Source: an uncultured candidatus Brocadiaceae bacterium (GTDB lineage Bacteria; Planctomycetota; UBA1135; UBA2386). From it: a stretch of DNA of 64,000 nucleotides. A model generated the notes under the pieces. That model worked only from the letters and a program-made list of their open reading frames with translations, did no database searches and had not been told where the DNA came from. Every line of letters begins with the position of its first letter. The stretch's first letter is position 1. Of the stretch, positions 7,032 through 35,544 are shown piece after piece. The stretch is taken from positions 121 through 64,120 of the forward strand of contig CAZMGG010000011.1 in assembly GCA_964565715.1 (NCBI GenBank). Reading direction: 5' to 3'. The translations under genes were made by a program, and so were the position numbers.

Positions 7032-9218
<2,187 letters not shown>

Positions 9219-23333: not shown

Positions 23334-23361
23334 TGCCGCTTTGTCCCTTCGGATTTCTGGC

Positions 23362-25029
23362 ATGAAGATCGGACTCTCCCTCGCCGCCTGTCTTCTGCTC
23401 GCGGCGACGCTCCCTGCCCAGGCGCCACCCGTGCGGCCGCGCCTCGTGGTGCTGTGCTCGGTGGACCAGCTCGCGAGCTGGGTGCTCGACGACGTGCTGC
23501 CGCACTGCGCGGGCGACGGCGGCTTCCGGCGGCTGCTGGACGAGGGCACGCGCTTCTCGCGCTGCGCCTATCTGCACGGCTGCACCGAGACGGGGCCCGG
23601 CCACGCCACGCTGTCCACCGGCGCGCCGGCGCGGTCGCACGGCATCGTCAAGAACCAGTGGTGGGACCCGGATTCGGCGGTGGCGCGGTACTGCGTCGAC
23701 GATGCGCGGGTCGAGGCGCTGCCCGACCTGCCGGAGGGCGGGGGCAAGGGTCCGGGCCTGCTGCTGGCGCCGACCATCGGCGAGGGCATCAAGGCCCATC
23801 TCGGCGCCCGCGCCCGCGTGGTGTCGGTGGCGTGGAAGGACCGCAGCTCGATCCTGCTGGCGGGCCCGGCGGCGGACGTGGCGGTCTGGTTCCACGCCGA
23901 GACCGGCCGGCTGGTGACCAGCCAGGCCTTCGGCCCGACGGCGCCGCCGTGGCTCGCGGCTTTCCAGGAACGGAGGGTCCTGGATGGCTTCTTCGGCCAG
24001 GTCTGGGAGCGCAGCGGGCCGGCGTCGGCCTACGCCGGTCTGGTCGACGACCGGCCGTTCGAGGCGCCGCACGGCAACGGCAGCCTGCAGCGCACCCTGC
24101 CGCAGAAGCTCACCGGCGGGCTCGAGGCGCCGGGGCCGCTGTTCTACGGCCAGGTCTACGCCTCGCCGTTCGGCAACGAGGCGGTGCTGCAGGCGGCGCT
24201 GGCGGCGGTGCAGGGCGAGAAGCTCGGCACCGACGACGTGCCGGACCTGTTGTGCGTCGGCTTCTCGTCGACGGACACCGTGGGGCACGCGTTCGGGCCC
24301 GACAGCGTCGAGGCCCGCGACGGGCTGCTGCGGCTCGATCGGCAGCTGGCGACGCTGCTGCAGGCCCTCGACCGGCAGGTGGGGGTGGGCCACTACGCGT
24401 TCCTGCTGTCGGCCGACCATGGCGTGGGGCCGATCCCGGAGGCCGCGGCGCAGGCCGGCGTGCCGGCCGGGCGCGGGCTGGTGCTGACCCGGGCCAAGGG
24501 GGCGGCCGAGTCGGCCCTGGCGCGCCGCTACGGCAGCCGCGAGGGGAAGGGTCCCTACGTGCCGCGGGCCAGCGAGATGTCGCTCTTCCTCGACCGCACG
24601 GCGCTGGCCGAGGCGGGCGTGCAGGGGGAGGCGGCGCTGAGAGAGGCGTTCCGCATCGCCGCCAACGCCGCCGCGGTGGCGCCGGGCGCGCTCACCGCGT
24701 TCGCCACCGACGAACTGCTGCGCCATGGTCCCGGCGAGGATCCGATCCGGCGGGCGATGTTCTTCGCCGCGCATCCCGAGCGGGCCGGCGACGTGCTGGT
24801 GGTGCTGCGGCCGTTCTGGCTCGACGGCACCTCGCCGGCCTCGCATGGCTCGCCGCACGCCTACGACCGCGAGGTGCCGCTGCTGGCGATGGGGCCGGGC
24901 ATCGCCGTGGGGATCGACCAGACGCCGGTGTCGCCGGGCCTGTGCGCGGTGCTGATCGCGCGCCTGCTCGGCATCCCGAAGCCGAGCCTCGCGGTGGACG
25001 AGGTGCCGCCGGGCGTGCTCGCCCGCTGA
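23362..25029 (+). CDS. secreted alkaline phosphatase superfamily protein (nucleotide pyrophosphatase/phosphodiesterase-like)
   Basis: Signal peptide MKIGLSLAACLLLAATLPAQ. VVLCSVDQL...TETGPGHATLSTGAPARSHGIVKNQWWD and ...GFSSTDTVGHAFGPDS...LLSADHG are metal-ligand blocks of the AP/NPP superfamily. Confidence 0.8.
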   Translation: MKIGLSLAACLLLAATLPAQAPPVRPRLVVLCSVDQLASWVLDDVLPHCAGDGGFRRLLDEGTRFSRCAYLHGCTETGPGHATLSTGAPARSHGIVKNQWWDPDSAVARYCVDDARVEALPDLPEGGGKGPGLLLAPTIGEGIKAHLGARARVVSVAWKDRSSILLAGPAADVAVWFHAETGRLVTSQAFGPTAPPWLAAFQERRVLDGFFGQVWERSGPASAYAGLVDDRPFEAPHGNGSLQRTLPQKLTGGLEAPGPLFYGQVYASPFGNEAVLQAALAAVQGEKLGTDDVPDLLCVGFSSTDTVGHAFGPDSVEARDGLLRLDRQLATLLQALDRQVGVGHYAFLLSADHGVGPIPEAAAQAGVPAGRGLVLTRAKGAAESALARRYGSREGKGPYVPRASEMSLFLDRTALAEAGVQGEAALREAFRIAANAAAVAPGALTAFATDELLRHGPGEDPIRRAMFFAAHPERAGDVLVVLRPFWLDGTSPASHGSPHAYDREVPLLAMGPGIAVGIDQTPVSPGLCAVLIARLLGIPKPSLAVDEVPPGVLAR

Positions 25030-25151: not shown

Positions 25152-25775
25152 ATGGACCGACTGATCGAACGATTCCCCCTCAAGCGCGGCGCCCACCAGG
25201 GTCGCCGGGACGGCATGTGCGCCATGGAGATGGTGGCGTGGCTCGCCGGCGAGGAGCACAGCGACGAGCCGCAGTGCGCCTGTCCGGTGATCGCCGCGTT
25301 CGTCCGCGCGCTCAACGACGCGCTGCCGAGCGATGCGGCGCGGACCCGCTGGCTGCGGCCGCTGGTGCCGCAGCTGGTGAACACCCGCGGCAGTGCGGCC
25401 GACGAACGGCGGCGCGGGCTGCAGGTGGCCGACGCGGTGGTGCGTGAGATCCTGCCGAAGGCGTTGCAGCGGGCGGGACGGACCGCCGAGGCGGATCTGT
25501 TCCGGCTGCTGCCGCCGGTGGCGGATCGGGCCAACGCGGCGCTGGCGTTGTGCGCGCTGCGGGCCTACGCCCAGGACCAGCACGCCGCCGAATGGCTGCT
25601 GGAGCGCGCCGCCGACGGCGCCACGCCGGCGCGGTTCGTCGCCGCCGGCGTGCAGGCGGCGCGGGAGGCGGCGGGCACCGACGGCCTGCGGGCGTGCGTC
25701 GACATCGTGCTGCGGATCTGCGGGCCACAGGGCGCCCAGGACGTCGCCGCGGACGCCCGCGAACTGGGCGCCTAG
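25152..25775 (+). CDS. hypothetical protein with N-terminal Cys cluster
   Basis: MDRLIERFPLKRGAHQGRRDGMCAMEMVAWLAGEEHSDEPQCACPVIAAFVRALND... The frame has good GC3. Its stop overlaps the convergent gene stop (CTAG at 25772-25775). Confidence 0.55.
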   Translation: MDRLIERFPLKRGAHQGRRDGMCAMEMVAWLAGEEHSDEPQCACPVIAAFVRALNDALPSDAARTRWLRPLVPQLVNTRGSAADERRRGLQVADAVVREILPKALQRAGRTAEADLFRLLPPVADRANAALALCALRAYAQDQHAAEWLLERAADGATPARFVAAGVQAAREAAGTDGLRACVDIVLRICGPQGAQDVAADARELGA

Positions 25776-26953
25776 CGGCCCAGGTAGTCGCGCAGCTCGC
25801 GGCTGCCCTGGGGCGGCACCCGGGCGGCCACGTCGTCCGGTCGCGCCAGGGCGAACGCGATGCCCAGCGAGAACGGGCCGATCGGCGCGTGGTTGCCGGT
25901 GTAGCGGCCATGGCCGTGGTAGCTGCCCTTCGCTACGAGATCGAAGCCGGTGACCTTGCCGTCCTTCACGCGCACTTCGCCCCGCAGGCGCAGGTGGTAG
26001 CCGCGGGCCGGCGCGCCATCGCCGGCGGGGGCTTGGGCGCGGGCCTCGCCGCGCACGACGAAGCGACCGTCGCCGGCCGGTTCCATGGTGAAGTCGGCCT
26101 GCCACACCTCGCGCGCGCGCCACATCGGCGGCTCGCCGCGGCTGTTGTCGATCAGGTGGAAGCGGGCGATGCGGGTGCCGAGGGTCTCGGGCCAGTGGCC
26201 ACGGGCCAGCGCGTCGGCCTCGGGCCCGGTGACCCAGAGGTGGTCGCGGCCGAGCCCTTCGCGGAACGGCCGGTGCCACTCGGGGTGCTCGACCTCGGGC
26301 CAGCGGGCCTCCAGCACGCGCGTGAAGACGGCGACGACGAGACCGCCGGCCGGCGGCGTGCGGGCGAACGTGGGATCGACGGCGGCAGCGCTGTCGGCGC
26401 CGGTGGCGGGGCTTGCCTCCGGCTTGCCCGTGGCAAGATGCTTCGTCAGCAGATCGCGCAGCCTGCCGGCGTCGCGGTGGTTCCAGCCGTGCACCAGGGT
26501 CCCGTCGGGTTCGGCCAGGTAGAACCCCTGGGTCGTCCGGCCCGGCGTCATGCCGTCGCGCTGGAACACGATCTTGCGGTAGAGCTCGCCCTCGGCGTCC
26601 TGCTGCCGGACGTGATACCACTCGTCCACCGCCACCGGCACGAAGTGCTCGCGCAGCCGCGCGATCACCGTCGGATCGGCGAAGCTGGACGCACGGTCCA
26701 GCACGCCGTTGTTTCAGGTGCAGCCGAGCGGATGGCCGTTCATCGACCAGACGAACAGGCGCTTGCCGTCCGCCTTCGCCTCGGCGGCGGCGGCCACGAG
26801 CTGCAGCCGCCAGGGGATCGTCTGCCAGGGCTCCGGTGCTGCGGGCACGAGCTGCGCGTGCAGCGACCGGAACTCGGCGGCGGTGAGCGGCGGCGGGGTG
26901 GGCGCGGGATCCTGGGGCGCCAGCAGGGTCACGGTGAGCAGGAGCGCGAGCAT
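25772..26953 (-). CDS. secreted thioredoxin-like protein with in-frame TGA (candidate selenoprotein, C-T-U) or disrupted gene
   Basis: Track ORFs 26714..26953 and 25772..26704 share one frame and are separated only by TGA AAC AAC GGC. The junction reads ...KRLFVWSMNGHPLGCT-TGA-NNGVLDRASSFADPTVIARLREHFVPVAVDEW. The signal peptide is on the upstream piece only. There is no SD for the downstream piece. Confidence 0.55.
26684..26702 (-). other. candidate SECIS-like hairpin
   Basis: On the mRNA, 11 nt 3' of the UGA, a perfect stem GCUGGAC/GUCCAGC forms with loop CGUGC. On the plus strand this is gctggac gcacg gtccagc. Confidence 0.4.
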
Positions 26954-26999
26954 CGCGCCACTCTAGCGCCCCTCGCTCTGGGCAAGCAGCCGATCGTCG

Positions 27000-29900
27000 T
27001 CAGCGGGCCGGGCCCGCCATCCGCGCCAGCAGTTCCTCCAGTGGCCCGCGGCGGCAGTGCCGCAGCCAGGGGCCGCTGACCGCCAGGGCCAGCGCCGTGT
27101 AGCCCAGGAAGGCGGCGAGCCCGACGGCCATCGGCCAGTCCTCGGCGGGCCAGGCGGCGCGCAGCAGCGGGAACAGCAGGGCCACGTGCAGCAGGTAGTG
27201 GGTGAGCGACAGCCGGCCGACGGCGGTCAGCGGCGCCCATGCGCGGCCGTTCGTGCGCAGCAGCAGGCAGCCACCGGTCACCGCCACCGCTCCGCTCGTC
27301 GCCAGCAGCAGGAACGGCAGCGTGGTCGGCACCCAGGTGAAGGCGAGCGGTGCCGCGGTGTCCGCCAGCGCGGCGTCGGCGGTGGCCTGCACGAGCTGCA
27401 GCGGCAGCAGGGCGGCCAGGGCCAGCCAGGTCCAGCGCCGCAGCCGGGCCGGCCGGTCGAGGCCCGCGCGCACCATGGCGATGCCGAGCAGCGGCAGGGC
27501 GAGCCACGGCAGCACCGGGTAGTTGCCGTCGAACAGGTAGTAGCGCACGGTCACGAGGCCGAAGGCGCTCCACATGGCGGGCGTGCCGTCCTCGTGCCAG
27601 TCGGCCTCGACCTGATCGCCGATGTGTGGCGCCGCTATGGGCGCCCGCACCCACGCCCCGGGGGCGAGGCCGCGCGCGCGCGAGGCCGGACGGCCCAGCA
27701 CCGGCAGCGCCAGCAGCAGCAGCAGGCCGAGCGGCGACAGCACCTCGGTGGGCCACAGCAGGAGGCCGAACGGGATGCCGAGCGCGATCAGCCCGAGCGC
27801 CCGTCGCGTCTGGCTCCCGACCGCGCGCGGGCCAGGGCCGCGGCCGCGCTGCACCGCCCAGGCGATGCCCGCCAGCAGGCAGAACAGGGCCGCCGGCTTG
27901 CCCTCCAGCAGGCGCGCCAGCAGGGCCGGCAGCAAAGCCCAGCCGTCGCCCTCGGTCGGCACCGTGTGCACGAACACCATGCCGAGCACGGCCAGCCCGC
28001 GGGCGGCATCCAGGGCCGGCAGGCGTGCGGCCGGCACGGTGGGCACGGCCGGTGGCACGGGCACCGGCGGTGCGGTGGGCGCGGCCGGTGCGGTGGGTGC
28101 GCCCGCGTAGTGTTCGCCGGCGGTGAGCCGTTCGTGCTTCATCACCACGCCGTGCGGCCCGACCACGGCGCCTTCGCCGATCGCAGCACCGTAGAGCACG
28201 ACGCTGGCGCGGCCGAGCGTCGCGCCGCGGCCGACGTGCACCGGCGCGGTCTTCAGCACGCGATCCTCGAAGCTGTGGGCCTGGAACATCGTGTCGACGG
28301 TGCCGTGGTCGGCCAGCCGCAGCATGTCGGGATCCACCACCTGGCTGAAGCCGGGGCCGAGCAGCACGGCGCGGCCGATCCGCATGCCCATCGCCCGCAG
28401 GTAGAACGGCAGCAGCAGGGTGCCTTCCAGGTGCTGCAGGAAGGGGGCGGCCCAGCGCTGCCAGCAGACGTAGAGGAAGTCCCAGCGGCTGGCCCAGCAC
28501 GACCACAGGGCGTGCTGGCCCGCGCGCACACGGCCGAGCAGCAGCCACTTGAGCAGCAGCACCAGCAGGCAGGGCGCCAGGGCCGCGACCAGCGTGGCGG
28601 AGCCGAGTGCTGGCAGCAGCAGGCCGAGGTCGGCGGCGAAGCGGGCTTCGGCGCGGCCGGCGAGCTGCAGCCAGAGCAGCGCCAGGAGCGCCGGCACGAC
28701 GGGCAGCAGGAAGCGCAGCCCTTCCCAGAAGAGCCGGTTGCCGCGCCGCAGCAGCCCGGGCTCGTGGGTGAGCCGCCGGTCGATGGTCACCACCTCGCGC
28801 CGCGGCAGCGCGAACGCCGGCAGGCCGAACCAGCCGGTGCCCGCCCGCATCGCGCGATCGTCGGCGATGGTGCAGACGCCCAGCAGCAGGTCGTCGGGCA
28901 GGCGCTGGCCCCCCTCGATCACCGCGTGGTTGCCGACGAAGGTGCGGGCGCCGAGCACCGCCGGCGCCACGGTGACTACGCCCTGCCGCAGGCGCGGCAC
29001 GCCGAGGTAGATGCCGTCGGCGAGGAAGCACTCCTCGCCCAGCGCGGTGTGTTCGGGCAGGGTCTCGAGGATCGTGCTGATCTCGCAGCGGCGGCCGATG
29101 CGCATGCCGGAAAGCCGCAGCCACGCCGGCCAGAACAGGGTGCCGGACAGCCATTCGCCCGCCGACTCCAGCAGGCCGGTGCGCAGCCACAGCCGGGCGT
29201 AGCACGGGTGCCAGCGGCTGAACGCACCCGCCGGCACCTTCGGGCCCCAACGCAGCAGCAGGGCCGCGGCCAGCAGGCGGGCCGGCAGCTCCAGCACCGT
29301 GCTGGCCAGCACCAGCAGCACGGCCAACGGTGCGGTCAGCGGCGCCTGCAGGAAGGCCAGTGCGGCCGGCGTGTCGACGCCACCGAGGTGCAGGGCCAGC
29401 AGCAGGAGCAGGGCGAAGGGCACCGCCAGCAGCGGCTGCAGTCCGAAGCGCAGCAACAGGAGCCGCATGGCGTGCCGCAGGGGCAGCCGGTCGTCGGAGC
29501 GGTCCACGCCCGGCGGTGTCTCGGCCGGTCCGGTGGGACGCGCCGGCACGCCGTCCCAGCGTTCATGGGCCGGCACCCGGCCGCCGGGCGGCAGGAACGC
29601 GAGCGGCCCCAGTTCGGCGCCTTCACCGATCTCGCTGCCGGGACCCATGCCGGCGCGCACGTGCAGCGTCGCCGCGCGCCGCACGGTCACCGGGCCGAAC
29701 ACCAGCTGGCCCTGATCCAGTTCGCACACTCCGAGCGCCGCCTCCTGGCCCACGGTGACGTCGTCGTGCAGTTCCAGCAGGTCCCAGCCGCCGCGCTGCA
29801 GGTCGACGCCGCGATGCAGGTGGACCCGCGCGCCGATGCGGGCGCCGAGCGCGCGCAAGGCCATGTTCTGCAGCTCGGTGCCGGCCAGCAGCGACCATGG

Positions 29901-32000
29901 CACGAGACGCACGGCGCGTTCCACCAGCCAGCAGCGGAAGTGCTGCGCCGTGAACGCCGGCACGCACCCCGGCCGGTACTCGCCGACCAGGAGCTCCTTC
30001 GCCAGCACCGCCAGCCACAGCGCGCCGAGGCCCCAGCCCAGCACGCCGACGAACCCGAAGACCGGCGCCAGCAGGATCGTCGCCACCGGCCCCAGCGTCG
30101 TGATGCCGAACGGCAGCAGCGCGAAGGCCAGCAGGTAGAGCACGCCGCCGCCGAGCACCAGGCTCGCCAGCAGCGTCGCGGTCTGGGCGAGACCGAACCA
30201 GAAGGGCTGCCCGGTCGGGGTTGCCTGCGGCGAGGGAGCTGCCGCGGCCGGCGGGACGACGCGCTCGGCCCGCGCCGCCAGCGCGCGCACGGTCCGCAGC
30301 CCATACACGTCCCGCACCGTGAGCCCCGCGGTGCGCGGGTCGGCACGCAGCAGCGAGATCACCAGCGCCGCACGCAGCGAGTCGCCGCCCAGCGCAAAGA
30401 AGTCGTCGTCCGGAGCCGGCGTCGTGCCGAGGCCCTGCGCCATCGCCTTGGCGATCGCGGCCTCGATGCCCACAGCGGGCGTGGCAGCGGTGCTGGTCGC
30501 GGGTCCGCCCAGTTCGGGCAGCGCCCTGCGGTCGAGCTTGCCGCCGATGGTGCGCGGCAGCGTCGCCAGCACGCCGATGCGGGCCGGCACCATGACCGCC
30601 GGCAGCTCGGCTCGCAGCCGTTCCTGCAGGGCCTGGGCGTCCGGCGGCGCCAGGGGATCCTGCGGCACCACGTGCGCCGCCAGCAGGGCCGCGCCGTCGC
30701 TGCCCTGCACGCGGCAGCCGGCCTCGCGCACGCCGGGGCAGCGGCACAGCGCCGCCTCGATCGCCTCCAGCTCCAGCCGATGGCCGCGCAGCTTGACCTG
30801 CGCGTCGATCCTGCCGTGGTACTCGAGGTCGCCGTCCGGCCGGCGCACGACCCGGTCGCCGGTGCGGTAGATCCGGCCGAACACCGGATGGGTGGGGAAC
30901 TGCCGCGCCGTCAGTTCGGGCTGGCCGAGGTAGCCGCGGGCGAGGCCGATGCCGGCGATGCATAGCTCGCCGGGCTCCCCGTCGGCGATCTCGTGCAGGT
31001 CCTTGTCGAGCACGTGGGCGTGGTTGCCCGGCACCGGTTGGCCGATGCTGACCGGCCGGCCGGGCTGCAGGCGCGTGCGCGTCACCGTCACCGAACACTC
31101 GGTCGGCCCGTAGCCGTTCTCCAGCCACAACGCCGCGGCCCAGCGGTCGCACAGGTCCTGCGGCATCGCCTCGCCGCCGGCGTAGCACAGCCGCAGGTCC
31201 GGCAATTCCCGCCCCACGTCGGTGACGTGCATGCTCCGCAGCAGCGTCGGCGGCGGGCACAACACGGTGATCCGTTCCTGCCGCAGCCACGCCGGCAGGT
31301 CCGGGCCGAGCCGCACGGTGGCGTCGTCGAGCAGCACCACCGTGGCGCCGCTGGCGAGCGCCAGGAAGGTCTCCTCGACGGAGCTGTCGTAGGCCGGCGA
31401 GCTGCCCTGGGCGATGCGGTCGCCGGGCCCGAGCCCGAAGCGGCGCACGCCTTCCCGGATCAGGTTGACGACGCCGCCGTGCTCCAGCATCACCGCCTTC
31501 GGCGCGCCGGTGGTGCCCGAGGTGTAGATCAGGTAGGCGAGGCGGTGCGGATCGGCGGGGTGCTCCCATTCGGCGGCCGCTGGCCGCCCATCGGCCAGCG
31601 CCGCTGCGGCGTCGACGATCCGCCCGGCGAAGCCCAGCGCCCGCGCCCGTGCGGTGCCGGCGGCGTCGGTCACCAGCGCCACCGCAGCGCTGTCGTGCAG
31701 CACGTGCCGCAGGTGCGCATCGGGGAAGTGCGGCTCCAGGCACACCCAGGCGGCGCCGGCCCGCAGGATCGCCAGCTTTGCGGCGTAGAGTTCGCAGCCC
31801 TGCCGCGGCAGCAGCACCGCGACCACCCGTTCCCCGCCATCGGGCGGGCCGAGGCGGGCGGCCAGCGCTGCCGCGTCGGCATCGAGTTCGCGGTAGGTGC
31901 GGCCCTGCCGCCGCGGCCGCCCTTCTCCCGGCGGCACGTCGACCGCCGGCGCGTCGGGCCAGCGCCGAAGCGCCGCGGCGAACAGGTCCTGCAGCAGCAT
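27000..32000 (-). CDS. Pls/PosA-type single-module NRPS (A-T, then three TM + hexapeptide-repeat-like modules) fused to a C-terminal DUF418/acyltransferase-like polytopic domain
   Basis: Adenylation motifs LAYLIYTSGTTGAPKAVMLEHGG, GELCIAGIGLARGYLG, YRTGDRV and KLRGHRLELEAIE. Carrier motif FFALGGDSLRA. Three repeats follow of hydrophobic helices plus left-handed-helix-like segments (LGARIGARVHLH..., SGMRIGRRCEIS..., MGMRIGRAVLLG...). A Pro/Ala linker (28020-28105) is followed by LPALDAARGLAVLGMVFVH...RRGPLEELLARM. I chose the ATG at 32000 (MLLQDLF). Confidence 0.85.
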   Translation of the reverse strand: MLLQDLFAAALRRWPDAPAVDVPPGEGRPRRQGRTYRELDADAAALAARLGPPDGGERVVAVLLPRQGCELYAAKLAILRAGAAWVCLEPHFPDAHLRHVLHDSAAVALVTDAAGTARARALGFAGRIVDAAAALADGRPAAAEWEHPADPHRLAYLIYTSGTTGAPKAVMLEHGGVVNLIREGVRRFGLGPGDRIAQGSSPAYDSSVEETFLALASGATVVLLDDATVRLGPDLPAWLRQERITVLCPPPTLLRSMHVTDVGRELPDLRLCYAGGEAMPQDLCDRWAAALWLENGYGPTECSVTVTRTRLQPGRPVSIGQPVPGNHAHVLDKDLHEIADGEPGELCIAGIGLARGYLGQPELTARQFPTHPVFGRIYRTGDRVVRRPDGDLEYHGRIDAQVKLRGHRLELEAIEAALCRCPGVREAGCRVQGSDGAALLAAHVVPQDPLAPPDAQALQERLRAELPAVMVPARIGVLATLPRTIGGKLDRRALPELGGPATSTAATPAVGIEAAIAKAMAQGLGTTPAPDDDFFALGGDSLRAALVISLLRADPRTAGLTVRDVYGLRTVRALAARAERVVPPAAAAPSPQATPTGQPFWFGLAQTATLLASLVLGGGVLYLLAFALLPFGITTLGPVATILLAPVFGFVGVLGWGLGALWLAVLAKELLVGEYRPGCVPAFTAQHFRCWLVERAVRLVPWSLLAGTELQNMALRALGARIGARVHLHRGVDLQRGGWDLLELHDDVTVGQEAALGVCELDQGQLVFGPVTVRRAATLHVRAGMGPGSEIGEGAELGPLAFLPPGGRVPAHERWDGVPARPTGPAETPPGVDRSDDRLPLRHAMRLLLLRFGLQPLLAVPFALLLLLALHLGGVDTPAALAFLQAPLTAPLAVLLVLASTVLELPARLLAAALLLRWGPKVPAGAFSRWHPCYARLWLRTGLLESAGEWLSGTLFWPAWLRLSGMRIGRRCEISTILETLPEHTALGEECFLADGIYLGVPRLRQGVVTVAPAVLGARTFVGNHAVIEGGQRLPDDLLLGVCTIADDRAMRAGTGWFGLPAFALPRREVVTIDRRLTHEPGLLRRGNRLFWEGLRFLLPVVPALLALLWLQLAGRAEARFAADLGLLLPALGSATLVAALAPCLLVLLLKWLLLGRVRAGQHALWSCWASRWDFLYVCWQRWAAPFLQHLEGTLLLPFYLRAMGMRIGRAVLLGPGFSQVVDPDMLRLADHGTVDTMFQAHSFEDRVLKTAPVHVGRGATLGRASVVLYGAAIGEGAVVGPHGVVMKHERLTAGEHYAGAPTAPAAPTAPPVPVPPAVPTVPAARLPALDAARGLAVLGMVFVHTVPTEGDGWALLPALLARLLEGKPAALFCLLAGIAWAVQRGRGPGPRAVGSQTRRALGLIALGIPFGLLLWPTEVLSPLGLLLLLALPVLGRPASRARGLAPGAWVRAPIAAPHIGDQVEADWHEDGTPAMWSAFGLVTVRYYLFDGNYPVLPWLALPLLGIAMVRAGLDRPARLRRWTWLALAALLPLQLVQATADAALADTAAPLAFTWVPTTLPFLLLATSGAVAVTGGCLLLRTNGRAWAPLTAVGRLSLTHYLLHVALLFPLLRAAWPAEDWPMAVGLAAFLGYTALALAVSGPWLRHCRRGPLEELLARMAGPAR

Positions 32001-32011
32001 GGGGCGGGAGG

Positions 32012-32542
32012 CTATCCGCCCGTGCTGCCGCCGCCGTCCTGTTCCTCGCGGACCCGCAGGTGGTCGGCGAGCCAGGGCCGCAGCGTCCGCCGACGCGCCG
32101 GCAAGAGGTGACGGAAGCCGCGCACGACGCCGACGCAGTCCCTGGCACCGCAGCCGCACGGGAACGGGCTCGCCAGTTCCCATTCGGTGGTGTGATAGTC
32201 GAACGTCACCTCGGCGAAGGCCCGGATTCCGGTCCGCGCCAGCAGCGTGCGACCGCGCAGGAACGCATTCGGCGCGCAGGCGTGGTTGAGGAAGCGCCAC
32301 GGATGGTGGTCCATGGCCTCCTCGAGGGCGACCTCGGCCGGCAGCTCGACGTGCTCGTGCGGGCCGACCTGCACCGAGAAGCGCGATGGCACGGGCACGA
32401 CGATGCCGTCGATCGGCAGGACCGGCTCGCCCCGCCGGATCGCCTCGGTGGCGATCACCTGGAACTGGTGACGGGTGCGCACCACCGCGACGCGGCTCTG
32501 TGTGGGCGACGGACGGGACGGGGACGGCTGCAGATCGGTCAT
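32012..32542 (-). CDS. SET-domain protein (putative lysine methyltransferase)
   Basis: WRFLNHACAPNAFL, EVTFDY and the post-SET-like cluster PFPCGCGARDC. The stop lies 11 nt upstream of the NRPS ATG on the same strand. Confidence 0.8.
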   Translation of the reverse strand: MTDLQPSPSRPSPTQSRVAVVRTRHQFQVIATEAIRRGEPVLPIDGIVVPVPSRFSVQVGPHEHVELPAEVALEEAMDHHPWRFLNHACAPNAFLRGRTLLARTGIRAFAEVTFDYHTTEWELASPFPCGCGARDCVGVVRGFRHLLPARRRTLRPWLADHLRVREEQDGGGSTGG

Positions 32543-32588
32543 CGGGCCGCGTGTTACGGGTCCGGGCCCAGGACCTCCACTGGCTGGT

Positions 32589-32614
32589 CCACGCAACACA
32601 GTGTTGTTACGTGG
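32589..32614 (-). promoter_or_regulatory. imperfect palindrome upstream of the SET/NRPS genes
   Basis: ccacg-caacac-a-gtgttg-tta-cgtgg lies 47-72 nt upstream of the SET ATG. It is relatively AT-rich for this genome. Confidence 0.3.
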
Positions 32615-32650
32615 GTTGCGCACAGTGGCCCGCGGCGGACGCGGTCCTGA

Positions 32651-32942
32651 TCAGGACGCGTCGGGCCACGACTGGAGTCCGACAGCGGCGGGATCGGGCC
32701 GGGCATCCGGTCGCACACCCATCCACCAGGGACGCGGGCCCGGACCGTCGATCGCCTCGCCGATCTGGATCCGTCGCCATTGCTCTGCCGGCGACAGCGA
32801 TGCCCACACGAGACCGATCGCCTGCATGATCGAGCAGAACAGCTCTGCCCGCTCGGCGTGCGTCAACCGTTGCATCTCGCGCACCTGCTGCGCCAGTTCG
32901 GCGCGCTCGTCCGGGATCGGCAGCGTGGGCACAGGCGGACGA
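32651..32942 (-). CDS. small hypothetical protein (GTG start, about 96 aa)
   Basis: VPTLPIPDERAELAQQVREMQRLTHAERAELFCSIMQAIGLVWASLSPAEQWRRIQIGEAIDG... The frame has high GC3 and fills the gap between the sulfatase and SET genes. The start was chosen by me. Confidence 0.3.
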
Positions 32943-32984
32943 TAGCGTGGCCGGTCCCGGCCGGCAAACCAGGCGCGCCCGCGG

Positions 32985-34337
32985 TCAGCCGTCCTGGCCG
33001 CCCCAGCGTGGCTCCTGCAGTTCCTTCTCCCACGCCGCCAGCGCCGCCAGCATCGCCTCGAGCCGCTCGCCTTCGTCGGCGGCCCGGTCGTGCCGCTCGC
33101 CGCGGTCGCGCCGCAGGTCGAACAGCTGCGGCGACTGGCCCTCGGCGCCGCGCAGCCACACCAGCTTCCACGGGCCGCGCCGCATCGCCACCGGCCCCTT
33201 GCCGCCATCGATGCGCCAGAACAGGTCGCGCTCGGGCAGCGCGTCCACCGCGCCCCGCAGCCGCGGACCGAGATCGATGCCATCCAGGCGCCATTCCTGC
33301 TCGACCTTGCCGCCGGCCGCGGCCACGAACGTCGGCAGCAGGTCCAGCAGGATCACCGGCTCCTCCAGCACCGTGCCGGGCTGCACCACGGAGGGCCAGC
33401 GGAACGCCAGCGGCACCCGCACGCCGCCCTCCCAGACCTGGCCCTTGCGGCCGCGCAGCGGGCCGTTGTCGGCGCCGGTCTGGGTCTGGCCGCCGTTGTC
33501 GTTGCTGAACACCACCAGGGTGCGGTCGGCGAGGCCGTGCTCCTGCAGCGCGTCCAGCACCGTGCCCACCGCGCGATCGAGCCCGACCAGCAGCCCGAGG
33601 TTGTTGGCCCGGCGCTCCGGCAGCCCGGCCGGTACCCTGGCGCGGTCGGCGGGCTTCGGCTGCAGCGGGCCGTGGGTGGCGGTGAACGACACCATCAGGA
33701 AGAACGGCCGATCCTTGTGTCCGGCGATGTAGCGAGCCGCCGCGGCGCCGAACCGGTCGGTGACGAAGCCCCGCTCGGGCACCGGCTCGCCGTTCTCCTG
33801 GATCACCTGATGCGGCGAAGGGTCGGCGATCGGCTGGTAGCGGCGCGCGCCCTGCAGCAGGCCGTGGAAGAAGGCGAAGCCGCGGCGGTTCGGGTGGTAC
33901 TCGGCGGGATAGCCGAGGTGCCACTTGCCGACCAGGGCGGTGTCGTACTGCAGCGCCGTGAGGCGGTCGGCGACGGTGCGCTCGGCGAGATCCATGCCGC
34001 CCTGCATGTAGCCCGGCGGGATGTTGCGTTCGTGGCCGAAGCGCTGCTGGTAGCGGCCCGTCAGCAGGCCGGCGCGCGATGGCGAGCACACCGCGCCGGT
34101 CACGTAGGCGTCGCTGCAGCGGGCGCCGTCCTTGGCGATCGAGTCGATGCGCGGCGTCAGCGTGCGGCAGTCGGCGGCGGCATCGGGCTGGAAGCCGAAG
34201 TCGGCGAAGCCGGCGTCGTCGCTGAACAGCAGCACGATGTTGGTGGGGGCGGGCTTCGGCGCGGGTGGCGGCGGCGTCGGGTCCTGGGCGAGCAGGGGGA
34301 GGGCGAGGAACTGGAGCGCGAGGACTCGGTGCCGCAT
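32985..34337 (-). CDS. secreted sulfatase (formylglycine-dependent arylsulfatase family)
   Basis: Signal peptide MRHRVLALQFLALPLLAQ. NIVLLFSDDAGFADFG and the CSPSRAGLLTGR formylglycine motif (C-x-P-x-R) are present. Confidence 0.88.
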   Translation of the reverse strand: MRHRVLALQFLALPLLAQDPTPPPPAPKPAPTNIVLLFSDDAGFADFGFQPDAAADCRTLTPRIDSIAKDGARCSDAYVTGAVCSPSRAGLLTGRYQQRFGHERNIPPGYMQGGMDLAERTVADRLTALQYDTALVGKWHLGYPAEYHPNRRGFAFFHGLLQGARRYQPIADPSPHQVIQENGEPVPERGFVTDRFGAAAARYIAGHKDRPFFLMVSFTATHGPLQPKPADRARVPAGLPERRANNLGLLVGLDRAVGTVLDALQEHGLADRTLVVFSNDNGGQTQTGADNGPLRGRKGQVWEGGVRVPLAFRWPSVVQPGTVLEEPVILLDLLPTFVAAAGGKVEQEWRLDGIDLGPRLRGAVDALPERDLFWRIDGGKGPVAMRRGPWKLVWLRGAEGQSPQLFDLRRDRGERHDRAADEGERLEAMLAALAAWEKELQEPRWGGQDG

Positions 34338-34494
34338 GGGGCGATGGTAGCGGCCGGGCTCCGACGACCGGCGTATCATTGCGTTCGGGCGAACGCGGTG
34401 CGCGGGAGGTTGGCCCGTCCTTGCGGCGGTCGGATGGGACCGGTACCAAACGAGGGCTGCCGGCGCGTCGGTGCGCCCTGCGAGGATCCTGCCC

Positions 34495-35544
34495 ATGAAC
34501 GCCAACTCCTTCCTGTTCCCCTTGCTGGTCGTCGTCGCCAGCCCGCTGGCGACCGCCCAGACCCTCGTCTTCGCCACCGACTTCGATGGCGCGCTGCCGG
34601 CGGCCGTCCAGCCGGGCGCTGCGATGCTCGAGGGCGTCCAGGGCTACGCCACGCTCGGCCCGAGCGGGGCGCCGTTCGGCGGCAACATGCTGCGCAGTCC
34701 CACCGGCAACGTCGTCACCCTGCAGCTCACCAACCTGCCGCCGCACAACGCGATCAGCCTCGACTTCCTGTTCGCGGCCATCGACTCGCTGGACGGCACC
34801 GGCACCTATCCGTCCGGCGACTTCTTCAAGATCACGTTGGATGGCAACCCGATCTTCCGCGAGTCCTTCGCCAATGCGCTGGCCTCCCAGGTGCAGAGCT
34901 ACGTGCCGCCGCCGGGGGTCGAACTGGCGCGCCGGGTCGATCTCGGCTTCACCCAGGGCTTCTACTACCTGGACAGCGCCTACTGGCTCGGCAACGATCC
35001 GCAGTTCGCGCGCATCGGCCACACGGCGGCTACCGCGACCTTCACCTTCGAGATGGAAGGGCCGGGCATCCAGCCGCTGTACGACGAGTCGTGGGGCATG
35101 GACCGGCTCCACGTCACGGTGGACTCGGTGACGCACCCGGGATCGGCCACGGCCTACGGCACCGGTTGCGGTCCGACCCTGGCGGCCACCGCGCCGCCGC
35201 GCATCGGCCAGACGCTGCCGCTGCTGATGCAGAACCTGCCGGCGTCGAGCGTGCTGGCGTTCCTGGCGATCGGCGACTCGGCAACCCAGTTCGGTGCGTT
35301 GCCGTTGCCGCTGGCGTTGGACGGTTATGGCGCGCCCGGCTGCTGGCTGCTGCACGACCTGCGCTACAACGGCAGCTCGCCGATGCTGCTGCTCGGCACC
35401 AGCGCGGTGGCCGACATCGCCATCCCGGGGCAGGCGATCTACGCCGGGTTCGTGTTCCGCCTGCAGGGCTGGGCGATCGCACCGGGCAGCAACACGGTGG
35501 GCGTGGTGTTCAGCAACGGCCTGCAGGTGCAGGTGGGGCAGTAG
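34495..35544 (+). CDS. secreted hypothetical protein carrying the shared C-terminal module
   Basis: MNANSFLFPLLVVVASPLATAQ signal peptide (an alternative GTG start is at 34471). The C-terminus reads ...ADIAIPGQAIYAGFVFRLQGWAIAP...VFSNGLQVQVGQ. Confidence 0.6.
   Translation: MNANSFLFPLLVVVASPLATAQTLVFATDFDGALPAAVQPGAAMLEGVQGYATLGPSGAPFGGNMLRSPTGNVVTLQLTNLPPHNAISLDFLFAAIDSLDGTGTYPSGDFFKITLDGNPIFRESFANALASQVQSYVPPPGVELARRVDLGFTQGFYYLDSAYWLGNDPQFARIGHTAATATFTFEMEGPGIQPLYDESWGMDRLHVTVDSVTHPGSATAYGTGCGPTLAATAPPRIGQTLPLLMQNLPASSVLAFLAIGDSATQFGALPLPLALDGYGAPGCWLLHDLRYNGSSPMLLLGTSAVADIAIPGQAIYAGFVFRLQGWAIAPGSNTVGVVFSNGLQVQVGQ

What the first reader, a model, noticed from the sequence alone, without database searches (positions are those of the whole stretch)
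27000..32542. SET-domain methyltransferase gene abutting a Pls/PosA-type polymer-forming NRPS
- **Seen in the sequence.** A 176-aa SET-domain protein (NHACAPN, FDY, post-SET-like CGCGARDC) ends 11 nt before the ATG of a 1666-aa protein.
- **The large protein.** It has one adenylation domain, one carrier domain (GGDSL) and then three repeats of transmembrane helices plus hexapeptide-like segments. It has no condensation or thioesterase domains.
- **Established knowledge (from memory).** This A-T-(TM/terminal-domain)x3 layout is the Pls/PosA family, to which epsilon-poly-L-lysine synthetase belongs. SET domains methylate lysine epsilon-amino groups and are uncommon in bacteria.
- **Inference.** The pair could make and N-methylate a homopoly(amino acid) or similar cationic polymer, or the SET protein could methylate the synthetase itself. 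I do not know of a described SET/Pls pairing.
- **Context.** The candidate selenoprotein lies directly downstream, and a small ORF and a sulfatase lie upstream, all on the same strand.
Basis: partly seen in the sequence, partly recalled or inferred. Interest (0 to 1): 0.72.

Follow-up and report, generated by a model that had tools for sequence, protein, structure and literature searches.

The report
SET methyltransferase paired with polylysine-synthetase-like enzyme
A small SET-domain methyltransferase gene sits 11 bases upstream of a membrane-bound, polylysine-synthetase-like enzyme; the same pair recurs in bacteria from at least five phyla (once fused into one protein), so it is a real, undescribed two-gene unit that probably makes a methylated, positively charged amino-acid product.

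Summary
On the minus strand, a 176-aa SET protein (32542..32012) ends 11 nt before a 1666-aa synthetase (32000..27000).

The synthetase has an adenylation domain, a carrier domain, and a Pls/PosA-type terminal domain of three (2 TM + beta-helix) repeats.

- **Conservation.** SET lies directly upstream in 38 of 72 species genomes carrying this synthetase clade (22/22 Actinomycetota; also Planctomycetota, Verrucomicrobiota and others). Starting from SET, 48 of 68 metagenome loci have the synthetase directly downstream. No other neighbour is conserved. One protein fuses all parts.
- **Substrate.** The adenylation pocket is the uncharacterised DSECYGGVTK type, not the Lys type. The one tested member of that type did not activate Lys, Orn, DAB or DAP.
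- **SET relatives.** The closest solved relative is BurB, which S-methylates free methionine. It is not a histone methyltransferase.

Best reading (about 0.4): SET makes a methylated cationic amino acid that the synthetase loads. The main rival is product tailoring, favoured by identical pockets in synthetases without SET. I rate it a new variant of a known kind, testable in cultured Kutzneria, Amycolatopsis and Lentzea.

The parts
32012..32542 (-). SET-domain AdoMet-dependent methyltransferase gene (176 aa; stop codon at 32014-32012)
   Evidence: - Pfam SET, 28.7 bits.
- Invariant in 41 homologues: N86 H87 C89 P91 (NHxCxP), F114 D115 Y116, and post-SET C129 C131 C136.
- AF2 model pLDDT 94.5.
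- Best PDB match is BurB, by sequence (E 1.4e-18) and by fold (E 2e-10, TM 0.62-0.68).
32001..32011 (-). 11-nt intergenic spacer (CCTCCCGCCCC) between the SET stop codon and the synthetase ATG
   Evidence: Read directly from the sequence. In related loci the gap between the tblastn matches of the two genes on the same strand is 11-193 nt. No promoter-like or terminator-like site was found anywhere in 25500-35000.
27000..32000 (-). Single-module membrane synthetase gene (1666 aa): A - T - Pls/PosA terminal domain - TmAT domain
   Evidence: Full-length homologues of 44-66% identity are found mainly in Planctomycetota MAGs.
30537..31979 (-). Adenylation domain (residues 8-488); pocket D205 S206 E209 C248 Y273 A274 G276 G296 V304 T305 K488, that is the 'DSECYGGVTK' type
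   Evidence: - Pfam AMP-binding 1.7e-71 and TIGR01733 5.7e-109.
- Pocket positions extracted by alignment and checked against the LgrA alignment.
- The same code is listed as an uncharacterised pocket in PMC10522769.
30270..30455 (-). Carrier (thiolation) domain, residues 516-577, with the GGDSL phosphopantetheine attachment site
   Evidence: Pfam PP-binding, 1.4e-06.
28095..30128 (-). Pls/PosA-type terminal domain (residues 625-1302): three repeats of two TM helices plus a left-handed beta-helix segment (C1-C3)
   Evidence: - TIGR02353 2.9e-107, below the curated cutoff.
- TM pairs and the LRxxGxRIG repeats.
- AF2 model pLDDT 89.4, pTM 0.90.
- Foldseek matches to hexapeptide acetyltransferases (CysE, maltose/galactoside O-acetyltransferases).
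27027..28025 (-). C-terminal transmembrane acyltransferase (TmAT; HGSNAT/YeiB-like) domain, residues 1326-1658, with D1331-x-x-R1334-x10-H1345
   Evidence: - Pfam DUF418 4.9e-15 and HGSNAT_cat 5.5e-08; Acyl_transf_3 3.8e-05, below its cutoff.
- R and H are invariant and D nearly invariant across 51 sequences.
- The motif definition comes from PMC12423673.
- Foldseek matches human HGSNAT over 411-445 alignment columns, probability 1.00, E 6e-4.

Best explanation
**What it is (well supported).** This is a conserved two-gene cassette.
- Gene 1 encodes a small cytoplasmic SET-fold, AdoMet-dependent methyltransferase of a bacterial subfamily. Its nearest characterised member is BurB, which methylates a free amino acid.
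- Gene 2 encodes a single-module, membrane-embedded synthetase of the Pls/PosA (cationic homopoly-amino-acid synthetase) family. It belongs to the large, biochemically unsolved 'DSECYGGVTK' clade.
- In this window and in many Planctomycetota, gene 2 carries an extra HGSNAT/YeiB-like transmembrane acyltransferase domain.

**How it most likely works (inferred).**
1. SET methylates a free or carrier-bound amino acid, producing a bulkier cationic monomer. Candidates are N-epsilon-methylated lysine or S-methylmethionine.
2. The adenylation domain keeps Asp235 (alpha-amine) and Glu239 (cationic side chain) but has an enlarged Ser236/Gly301/Gly322 pocket. It activates that monomer and loads it on the carrier domain.
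3. The three-fold beta-helix/TM terminal domain joins monomers, or transfers them, at the membrane to give a methylated cationic oligomer or polymer.
4. The fused TmAT domain, where present, helps pass or attach the product across the membrane.
For: **Shown.**
- The domain architecture.
- SET catalytic and cofactor motifs are invariant.
- Starting from the synthetase, SET lies directly upstream in 38 of 72 species-level genomes: Actinomycetota 22/22, Planctomycetota 8/13, Verrucomicrobiota 5/7, Armatimonadota 1/1.
- Starting from SET, 5 of 7 contig look-ups and 48 of 68 metagenome loci have the synthetase directly downstream.
- Flanking genes differ between loci, and no third gene is conserved.
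- SET and synthetase pairwise identities co-vary, r = 0.92.
- P0107 carries TmAT-SET-A-T-terminal domain in one 1887-aa polypeptide.

**Favouring monomer supply.**
- BurB is the best solved relative by sequence (70 bits, against 55 for MLL1) and by fold.
- BurB and this family share the FDYxTTE-type motif, Q58 and H64.
- BurB methylates free Met to the cationic amino acid SMM for a thiotemplate pathway.
- The pocket lacks Thr322, which is conserved in diamino-acid activators. The one tested DSECYGGVTK domain rejected Lys, Orn, DAB and DAP and took Arg only modestly. The authors of that study suggested a larger analogue as the real substrate.
- SET lies before the A domain both in gene order and in the fusion protein.
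Against: - The 11 pocket positions are near-identical in 41 synthetases with SET and 33 without (invariant at 5 positions, with one to three odd sequences at the other 6). No alignment column is conserved differently between the two groups.
- Most Acidobacteriota (20/21) and all Alphaproteobacteria (0/4) with this synthetase lack an adjacent SET.
- Two lineages carry only decayed SET remnants next to an intact synthetase: L038 and L088.
- These points suggest SET may be dispensable. That fits tailoring better, unless SET or an analogue is encoded elsewhere, which I could not test.
- SET is only 24-29% identical to BurB. It carries an 11-residue helical insert that BurB lacks.
- A monomer whose side-chain amine is fully methylated, or is a sulfonium, could not form the isopeptide bonds typical of the family.
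- There is no biochemical data for this SET, and none for any full-length member of the clade.
Confidence: 0.4

Rival explanations
1. Tailoring. The synthetase activates an ordinary, unmethylated cationic metabolite. SET is an accessory enzyme that methylates the carrier-bound unit, the growing chain or the finished oligomer. Lineages without SET would simply make the unmethylated product.
For: - The pocket is near-identical, and no residue is conserved differently, between 41 synthetases with SET and 33 without.
- SET is absent next to the synthetase in 34 of 72 genomes.
- SET remnants lie beside intact synthetases in L038 and L088.
- Orphan SETs are scattered through the SET tree.
Against: - The closest characterised SET acts on a free amino acid, not on a peptide.
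- According to PMC10522769 and my own knowledge of Pls, these enzymes release and export the chain as it grows. A cytoplasmic methyltransferase would therefore have little access to it, and methylating the attacking amine would block elongation (inference).
- No standard amino acid was a good substrate for the one tested A domain of this type.
Confidence: 0.3
2. Not a polymerase. The terminal domain, with the fused TmAT domain in Planctomycetota, transfers a single aminoacyl unit from the carrier domain onto a membrane or cell-envelope acceptor such as a lipid or glycan. This would be analogous to D-alanylation by DltA/DltC/DltB. SET would supply or modify that unit.
For: - The TmAT domain has an intact DxxRx10H motif and an HGSNAT-like fold.
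- TmAT proteins move acyl groups from a pantetheine thioester (acyl-CoA) across the membrane.
- The model of terminal domain plus TmAT is compact, pTM 0.90.
- The TmAT domain can sit at either end of the protein.
- Some related loci lie beside envelope genes: LPG_synthase_TM and PMT_2 in L001, and a glycan/ABC-export cluster in L003.
- The terminal domain scores below the curated Pls/PosA cutoff.
Against: - Most clade members, including all actinomycete ones, lack the TmAT domain.
- The envelope-gene neighbours are not conserved.
- Every characterised member of the family makes homopolymers.
Confidence: 0.2
3. Protein methylation. SET methylates a lysine of the synthetase itself (a regulatory modification) or of some other protein, and the product is not methylated.
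For: - SET domains are classically protein-lysine methyltransferases, and histone methyltransferases are the next-best PDB matches.
- Tight 1:1 gene coupling and a fusion protein would also suit an enzyme that acts on its partner.
Against: - No residue, lysine or otherwise, is conserved specifically in synthetases with SET.
- BurB is closer than any protein methyltransferase.
- About 30% of family members are orphans without the synthetase next to them.
Confidence: 0.07
4. Adjacency without a shared function: chance or inherited synteny only.
For: Half of the synthetase loci lack SET, and 20 of 68 SET loci lack the synthetase.
Against: - The pair recurs in at least five phyla with unrelated flanking genes.
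- The genes are always on the same strand, in the same order, with gaps of 11-193 nt.
- A fused protein exists.
Confidence: 0.03

Closest known systems
Epsilon-poly-L-lysine synthetase Pls (Streptomyces albulus) and delta-poly-L-ornithine synthetase PosA (Acinetobacter baumannii): the CHPA synthetases, NCBIfam TIGR02353
   Same: - One A domain, one T domain, and no C or TE domain.
- A terminal domain of about 700 aa with three pairs of TM helices and three beta-helix segments.
- Asp235 and Glu239 are kept in the pocket.
   Different: - The pocket is DSEC(Y)(A/V)GGVTK instead of DAESIGTVVK (Lys). Thr322, conserved for diamino acids, is replaced by Gly.
- The TIGR02353 score is below the curated cutoff.
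- It has an extra C-terminal TmAT domain.
- It has a conserved SET partner gene, whereas posA is described as a single-gene operon.
The 'DSECYGGVTK' homologues of Patel & Gulick 2023 (Bdellovibrionales OFZ39577.1, Novosphingobium WP_072382105.1; PMC10522769)
   Same: The specificity pocket is of the same type, and it is conserved in all 120 best homologues of the window protein. This is the clade the window protein belongs to.
   Different: That paper tested only the isolated A domain. It found modest L-Arg activity and no use of diamino acids. It mentions no methyltransferase at all, and so no SET neighbour or TmAT fusion. I could not retrieve the genomic context of OFZ39577.1.
BurB (Burkholderia thailandensis) and MSMT (Streptomyces mobaraensis): SET-domain L-methionine S-methyltransferases
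   Same: - Small (about 170-180 aa) bacterial SET proteins with a post-SET CxCx4C motif and C-terminal helices.
- Best PDB match by sequence and by fold.
- BurB feeds a cationic methylated building block into a thiotemplate pathway.
   Different: - Only 24-29% identity.
- The window family has NHxC where BurB has LHSC, plus an 11-residue helical insert with the conserved W82-R83.
- No BurI/BurD/BurE-type genes are nearby.
- The substrate is unknown.
Transmembrane acyltransferase (TmAT) superfamily: AT3 (OafA/OafB), HGSNAT, YeiB/DUF418
   Same: - Pfam HGSNAT_cat and DUF418 matches.
- The DxxRx10H motif in the first helix.
- A multi-helix fold that matches human HGSNAT.
   Different: It is fused to a carrier-protein-dependent synthetase. 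Known members use free acyl-CoA and are fused, if at all, to SGNH or other periplasmic domains (otherwise my own knowledge). The donor and acceptor here are unknown.
DltA-DltC-DltB-DltD D-alanylation system (functional analogy only)
   Same: An adenylating enzyme loads an amino acid on a carrier protein, and a polytopic membrane acyltransferase passes it to an extracytoplasmic polymer (my own knowledge).
   Different: DltB is an MBOAT, which is unrelated to TmAT (MBOAT served as the negative control in PMC12423673). There is no SET partner. No homology is claimed.

Membership tests
Pls/PosA (CHPA) synthetase family, TIGR02353 | N-terminal single adenylation domain followed by one carrier domain | tested here: met
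   AMP-binding 8-488 and PP-binding 516-577; TIGR01733 364.6 bits, above its cutoff of 317.4.
Pls/PosA (CHPA) synthetase family, TIGR02353 | No condensation or thioesterase domain | tested here: met
   No such Pfam family matched at E <= 0.01.
Pls/PosA (CHPA) synthetase family, TIGR02353 | Terminal domain of about 700 aa: six TM helices in three pairs, each followed by a homologous soluble (beta-helix) segment C1-C3 | tested here: met
   - TM pairs and three LRxxGxRIG repeats, with internal BLAST as low as 2e-8.
- The AF2 model shows helix pairs followed by beta-rich segments three times.
- Foldseek matches to hexapeptide acetyltransferases.
Pls/PosA (CHPA) synthetase family, TIGR02353 | Scores above the curated NCBIfam cutoff for the terminal domain | tested here: not met
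   359.8 bits against a cutoff of 423.1, although E is 2.9e-107 and 674 of 695 profile positions are covered. It is a divergent subfamily.
Pls/PosA (CHPA) synthetase family, TIGR02353 | Pocket residues conserved for diamino-acid substrates (Asp235, Glu239, Thr322) | tested here: not met
   Asp and Glu are present, but position 322 is Gly in the window protein and in 118 of its 120 best homologues. The residue definition comes from PMC10522769 Supplementary Table 2.
Pls/PosA (CHPA) synthetase family, TIGR02353 | Product is a cationic homopolymer joined by isopeptide bonds | not testable with these tools
   Needs chemistry.
SET-domain methyltransferases (PF00856) | SET fold with the NHxC and (F/Y)DY motifs that bind AdoMet and line the methyl-transfer channel | tested here: met
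   - Pfam 28.7 bits, above 22.4.
- N86 H87 C89 and F114 D115 Y116 are conserved in 41 sequences.
- AF2 model pLDDT 94.5, with 250 PDB matches at E <= 0.001; all 50 listed are SET-domain structures.
SET-domain methyltransferases (PF00856) | Post-SET zinc cluster CxCx4C paired with the Cys of NHxC | tested here: met
   C89, C129, C131 and C136 are invariant or nearly so. Zinc binding itself was not tested.
SET-domain methyltransferases (PF00856) | Substrate is a protein lysine | not testable with these tools
   The nearest relative, BurB, is an exception that acts on free Met.
BurB/MSMT methionine S-methyltransferases | Closest sequence and structural neighbour among solved proteins | tested here: met
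   hmmsearch E 1.4e-18, covering residues 19-168; Foldseek ranks 1-3. This shows resemblance only.
BurB/MSMT methionine S-methyltransferases | Encoded with SMM decarboxylase, aminotransferase and dehydrogenase genes (BurI/D/E) of the DMSP pathway | tested here: not met
   No conserved neighbour other than the synthetase in 89 loci.
BurB/MSMT methionine S-methyltransferases | Methylates the sulfur of free L-methionine | not testable with these tools
   Needs an enzyme assay. Identity to BurB is only 24-29%, whereas BurB and MSMT, which share the function, are 35% identical.
TmAT superfamily (AT3 / HGSNAT / YeiB-DUF418) | Family HMM matches | tested here: met
   DUF418 56.3 bits (cutoff 23.6) and HGSNAT_cat 33.0 bits (cutoff 22). 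Acyl_transf_3 at 23.3 bits is below its cutoff of 31.
TmAT superfamily (AT3 / HGSNAT / YeiB-DUF418) | DxxR motif in TM helix 1 (DxxRx10H in AT3 proteins) | tested here: met
   D1331-A-A-R1334-x10-H1345. R and H are invariant and D is at least 90% conserved in 51 sequences. Motif definition.
TmAT superfamily (AT3 / HGSNAT / YeiB-DUF418) | Conserved multi-helix transmembrane fold | tested here: met
   Foldseek matches human HGSNAT (8vli, 8vkj, 8vlg and others) over 411-445 alignment columns, probability 1.00, E 6e-4 to 2e-3. A phmmer search of PDB sequences found nothing.
TmAT superfamily (AT3 / HGSNAT / YeiB-DUF418) | Transfers an acyl group from a cytoplasmic thioester to an extracytoplasmic acceptor | not testable with these tools
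   Needs experiments.

The most novel reading that the evidence does not exclude
The cassette makes a kind of natural polycation not yet described: an oligomer or polymer of a methylated amino acid that carries a permanent or bulky positive charge, such as S-methylmethionine (sulfonium) or di/tri-methyl-lysine (quaternary ammonium). SET would be only the second SET-fold enzyme known to act on a small molecule in secondary metabolism. In Planctomycetota the fused HGSNAT-like domain would take its acyl donor from the synthetase's own carrier-domain pantetheine thioester rather than from acyl-CoA, carrying or attaching the product across the membrane.
Probability: 0.15. Interest if true: 0.85.

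Novelty: new variant of a known kind. Interest (0 to 1): 0.68.

Why it matters
- **New chemistry to look for.** Pls-type enzymes make commercially used antimicrobial polycations such as epsilon-polylysine. The DSECYGGVTK clade is large: 567 matching stretches in species-representative genomes and over 6000 protein clusters at E <= 1e-50. It is spread across soil, freshwater and actinomycete genomes, yet its substrate and product are unknown.
- **A concrete clue to the substrate.** A conserved methyltransferase partner tells experimenters which non-standard substrates to try, namely methylated cationic amino acids.
- **Tractable organisms.** The pair occurs in cultured strains, including Kutzneria viridogrisea DSM 43850, Amycolatopsis vancoresmycina NRRL B-24208 and Lentzea aerocolonigenes NBRC 13195.
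- **Wider role for bacterial SET domains.** It would extend them beyond protein methylation; BurB is so far the only natural-product example.
- **A new type of fusion.** A carrier-protein synthetase fused to a transmembrane acyltransferase has not been discussed in the TmAT literature I read.

Tried and rejected
1. **Context of the tested Bdellovibrionales enzyme.** I tried to recover the genomic context of OFZ39577.1 by stitching its A-domain sequence from the OCR-damaged supplementary DNA. The stitched query returned only hits of 34-52% identity, not the protein itself.
2. **Taxonomy of SET relatives.** One cluster look-up of 10 representatives gave an organism name for only one cluster (a second had just 'hypothetical protein'), so I did not repeat it.
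3. **TmAT domain against PDB sequences.** A phmmer search found nothing. Only the fold search recovered HGSNAT.
4. **Defence-system models.** PADLOC has no match for either protein.
5. **Promoter and terminator scan** of 25500-35000 found nothing. This is uninformative for this organism type.
6. **Literature searches** for a SET/Pls pairing, a DUF418/NRPS fusion, an SMM-activating A domain, and newer CHPA synthetase work found nothing relevant beyond PMC10522769, PMC12542666, PMC7496086 and PMC12423673.
7. **A third conserved partner gene** (hydrolase, exporter, PPTase, second methyltransferase). ORF clustering over 89 loci gave only within-genus synteny.
8. **Lysine as the substrate.** Considered and rejected because of the pocket and the published assay.
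9. **The 'small ORF' 32651..33283.** Considered and rejected as part of the unit: it has no family match and overlaps the sulfatase gene.

Full report
**1. The observation**

The window is about 73% G+C, so six-frame ORF lists are crowded. I used codon-position GC to pick out real genes.

On the minus strand, a 176-aa ORF (ATG 32542, stop 32014-32012) translates to a SET-domain protein. It contains NHACAPN, TFDY and CGCGARDC and matches Pfam SET at 28.7 bits, above the 22.4 cutoff. Its codon-position GC is 0.73/0.53/0.90, typical of a coding frame. The junction reads TAG-CCTCCCGCCCC-ATG, an 11-nt gap.

The next gene (32000..27000) encodes 1666 aa. Its domains are:
- an adenylation domain (Pfam 8-358 and 414-488; TIGR01733 above its cutoff);
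- a carrier domain (516-577, GGDSL);
- the NCBIfam 'Pls/PosA family' terminal domain (625-1302, E 2.9e-107, but 359.8 bits against a curated cutoff of 423.1).

No condensation or thioesterase domain was found.

TM helix pairs lie at about 607-668, 847-916 and 1090-1159. Each is followed by a homologous segment bearing LRxxGxRIG (at 715, 961, 1201). Pairwise BLAST between the segments reaches 2e-8.

Residues 1326-1658 are a separate membrane domain that matches DUF418 (4.9e-15), HGSNAT_cat (5.5e-8) and, more weakly, Acyl_transf_3.

**2. Is the SET-synthetase adjacency conserved?**

I approached it from both genes.

*Starting from SET.* A search returned 55 relatives, the named ones from Planctomycetota and Longimicrobiales MAGs.
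- In 5 of 7 contig look-ups, SET sits immediately upstream of an A-T-hexapeptide synthetase. The flanking genes are otherwise unrelated.
- A metagenome scan using the SET alignment gave 80 loci. Of the 68 with enough downstream DNA, 48 have the synthetase's A domain starting within 450 nt downstream.

*Starting from the synthetase.* I scanned one genome per species with an alignment of the terminal domain. That gave 567 relatives, of which the 80 best were kept. Seventy-two of these have upstream DNA, and SET lies directly upstream on the same strand in 38 of them, with gaps of 11-193 nt. One of the 38 (L038) is only a fragment.

| Phylum | Loci with SET directly upstream |
|---|---|
| Actinomycetota (Kutzneria, Amycolatopsis, Lentzea, Planosporangium, Actinocrispum, a Streptomyces) | 22/22 |
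| Planctomycetota | 8/13 |
| Verrucomicrobiota | 5/7 |
| Armatimonadota | 1/1 |
| Acidobacteriota | 1/21 |
| Alphaproteobacteria | 0/4 |

Further evidence for a real pairing:
- Clustering all ORFs from 89 loci found no other neighbour shared beyond a single genus.
- Pairwise identities of SET and synthetase correlate across 41 loci (r = 0.92). Shared species phylogeny contributes to this figure.
- A neighbour-joining tree of the synthetases places SET-linked genes on several deep branches.
- One NCBI protein, P0107 (1887 aa), carries all the parts in a single chain, in the order TmAT(27-371)-SET(370-518)-A(567-1148)-T-terminal domain(1203-1885). The TmAT domain is therefore at the opposite end compared with the window protein.

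Together these results show a genuine, widespread two-gene unit.

**3. Which synthetase is it?**

I aligned the window protein with its 120 best homologues and read off the specificity positions. The anchors were FDxS, LPPT, GGE and YGPTE, cross-checked against the LgrA alignment. The window pocket is D-S-E-C-(Y)-A-G-G-V-T-K. Of the 120 homologues, 112 read DSEC-Y-[V/A]-G-G-V-T-K.

This is the 'D S E C Y G G V T K' pocket that Patel & Gulick (PMC10522769) list as uncharacterised, from a Bdellovibrionales MAG and a Novosphingobium. Their isolated A domain did not use Lys, Orn, DAB or DAP and showed only modest activity with L-Arg. They proposed a larger analogue as the true substrate.

Their table also marks D235, E239 and T322 as conserved for diamino acids. 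In this clade T322 is Gly.

The pocket still suits a cationic alpha-amino acid, but it is not the lysine pocket and probably not a simple diamino-acid pocket.

**4. What kind of SET protein is it?**

In an alignment of 41 family members, the AdoMet and catalytic motifs (N86 H87 C89 P91; F114 D115 Y116) and the post-SET cysteines (C129, C131, C136) are invariant or nearly so.

A profile search of PDB sequences puts BurB first (E 1.4e-18, 70 bits, aligned over residues 19-168). Histone methyltransferases follow (MLL1, 55 bits). An AlphaFold model (pLDDT 94.5) also finds BurB first by fold (E 2e-10, TM 0.62-0.68). MLL1 comes next at 6e-8, TM about 0.5.

BurB is a 172-aa SET enzyme that S-methylates free L-methionine to the cationic amino acid S-methylmethionine. 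This is the first step towards the DMSP that is loaded by an A domain of the BurA assembly line. Trottmann et al. note that natural-product methyltransferases were otherwise known only from classes I and III.

The window family shares with BurB the compact size, the C-terminal helices, an FDYxTTE-like motif, Q58 and H64.

There are also clear differences. Identity is only 24-29%. The family has an 11-residue helical insert with the conserved W82-R83 that BurB lacks. No BurI/D/E-type genes accompany it.

BurB is therefore a precedent for a SET enzyme acting on a free amino acid. It is not proof of the same substrate.

The subfamily comprises 396 clusters (50% identity) at E <= 1e-30 and 4479 at E <= 1e-10.

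**5. The extra C-terminal domain**

The sequence LDAARGLAVLGMVFVH gives D1331-x-x-R1334-x10-H1345. Across 51 fused homologues, R and H are invariant and D is at least 90% conserved.

DxxR, extended to DxxRx10H in AT3 proteins, is the signature of the first helix of the transmembrane acyltransferase (TmAT) superfamily. That superfamily unites AT3, HGSNAT and YeiB/DUF418. Its members form a pore through which the pantetheine thioester of acyl-CoA reaches an extracytoplasmic acceptor.

A model of residues 590-1666 is confident (pLDDT 89.4, pTM 0.90). Its beta-helix parts match hexapeptide acetyltransferases. Its C-terminal helical bundle matches human HGSNAT over 411-445 alignment columns.

The fusion occurs in Planctomycetota-type members and in one Chthonomonadales MAG. 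It is absent from the actinomycete, acidobacterial and alphaproteobacterial members.

**6. How does it work?**

The shown facts fit three possible roles for SET.

*(a) Monomer supply.* SET methylates a free or carrier-bound amino acid, and the A domain loads the product. Support comes from:
- the BurB precedent;
- the non-standard, enlarged cationic pocket;
- the poor activity of the tested A domain on all standard amino acids;
- the position of SET before the A domain, both in gene order and in the fusion protein.

*(b) Tailoring of the product.* Support comes from:
- the 11 pocket positions being near-identical in 41 synthetases with SET and 33 without, with no alignment column conserved differently between the groups;
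- SET being absent next to the synthetase in nearly all Acidobacteriota and Alphaproteobacteria;
- decayed SET remnants lying beside intact synthetases: L038, and three colinear weak hits in L088;
- orphan SETs being scattered through the SET tree.

*(c) Methylation of the synthetase itself.* This has no specific support.

I favour (a) at about 0.4 and put (b) at about 0.3. The evidence for (b) would also be explained by an unlinked SET or a non-homologous methyltransferase elsewhere in the genome. The Met-to-SMM step itself is known to be catalysed by non-homologous enzymes: MmtN shows no significant similarity to BurB, and MSMT is only a distant (35%) BurB homologue. I could not scan whole genomes for this. 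In addition, a cytoplasmic enzyme has limited access to a chain that is released and exported during synthesis. That last point is inference.

What the terminal domain does with the monomer is a separate question. It could polymerise it, as in all characterised relatives. Or it could transfer it to an envelope acceptor through the TmAT domain. I list the second option as a rival at 0.2.

**7. Comparison with what is known, and novelty**

The synthetase has the layout of the Pls/PosA family but fails two membership tests: the curated score cutoff and the diamino-acid Thr322. It is best described as a divergent, uncharacterised subfamily.

The SET protein is a true SET-fold enzyme, and BurB is its nearest characterised relative. 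The TmAT domain meets the family's sequence and fold criteria.

I found no paper describing a SET/Pls-type pairing or a synthetase-TmAT fusion. PMC10522769 never mentions a methyltransferase.

I therefore rate this a new variant of a known kind. It is a good experimental lead because the pair occurs in cultured actinomycetes.

**8. Context in the window**

The neighbours have unrelated functions:
- a sulfatase (34577..32985, minus strand);
- a PafA-like alkaline phosphatase (23341..25029, plus strand);
- a multihaem cytochrome/LVIVD protein;
- a DAO oxidoreductase;
- a GNAT acetyltransferase.

None is conserved next to the pair in other genomes.

The ORF immediately downstream (26953..25772, minus strand) begins with a hydrophobic stretch resembling a signal peptide (judged by eye, no predictor run) and carries an in-frame TGA within GCT*NNG. 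It is not part of the conserved unit.

Noticed in passing
window 25772-26953 (minus strand): The ORF starting 47 nt after the synthetase stop begins with a hydrophobic stretch resembling a signal peptide (MLALLLTVTLLAP...; judged by eye) and has an in-frame TGA in the context ...HPLGCT*NNGVL.... It continues in frame for 299 more codons with no Pfam match. It is not conserved next to the synthetase in other loci.
   Followed up: partly
proteins P0176-P0183, P0202, P0307: The best-scoring relatives of the SET profile in the 1.8-billion-protein library carry 4-9 tandem copies of this SET domain in one chain (for example P0176, 1479 aa with 8 copies, and P0177, 1449 aa with 9 copies). Their origin and meaning are unknown.
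   Followed up: no
protein P0107; protein P0164: P0107 fuses TmAT-SET-A-T-terminal domain in one 1887-aa chain, with the TmAT domain at the N-terminus. P0164 (1580 aa) is a clade member with a 4'-phosphopantetheinyl transferase domain (PF01648) fused to it.
   Followed up: partly
L008 3030-6389; L094 3575-6826; L103 1093-4346: Some orphan SET genes, with no synthetase downstream, lie directly after a large same-strand gene of about 700 aa. In L008 that gene is a Peptidase_S9 prolyl-oligopeptidase-type gene (711 aa), and SET is followed on the other strand by a GBBH-like_N (DUF971) gene. In L094 and L103 the upstream 694-aa ORF was not annotated, and a 159-aa ORF follows on the other strand. 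This may be a second recurring context for this SET family.
   Followed up: no
L088 about 6600-6860 (just upstream of the A domain at 7197); L038 7929-8072: In two Verrucomicrobiota MAGs the position upstream of an intact synthetase holds only fragments of SET. L088 has three colinear weak hits, and L038 has one 48-residue piece. This suggests SET loss by decay.
   Followed up: partly
L001 7323-9588; L003 1-9822: In some related loci the pair lies beside cell-envelope genes. L001 has an MprF-type LPG_synthase_TM gene and a PMT_2 glycosyltransferase. L003 has a glycosyltransferase/ABC-2 exporter/PIG-L cluster. These neighbours are not conserved across loci.
   Followed up: no
L085 16956-18080: In one Lentzea genome whose synthetase lacks the TmAT fusion, a separate DUF418-like gene (32% identical to the window's TmAT domain) lies about 5 kb downstream of the synthetase.
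   Followed up: no
window 32012-32606 (minus strand): The synthetase reading frame stays open for about 600 nt upstream of its ATG and overlaps the SET gene in another frame. Mechanical ORF lists therefore report a 1766-aa or 1868-aa ORF. Codon-position GC and homologues show that the SET frame is the coding one there.
   Followed up: yes
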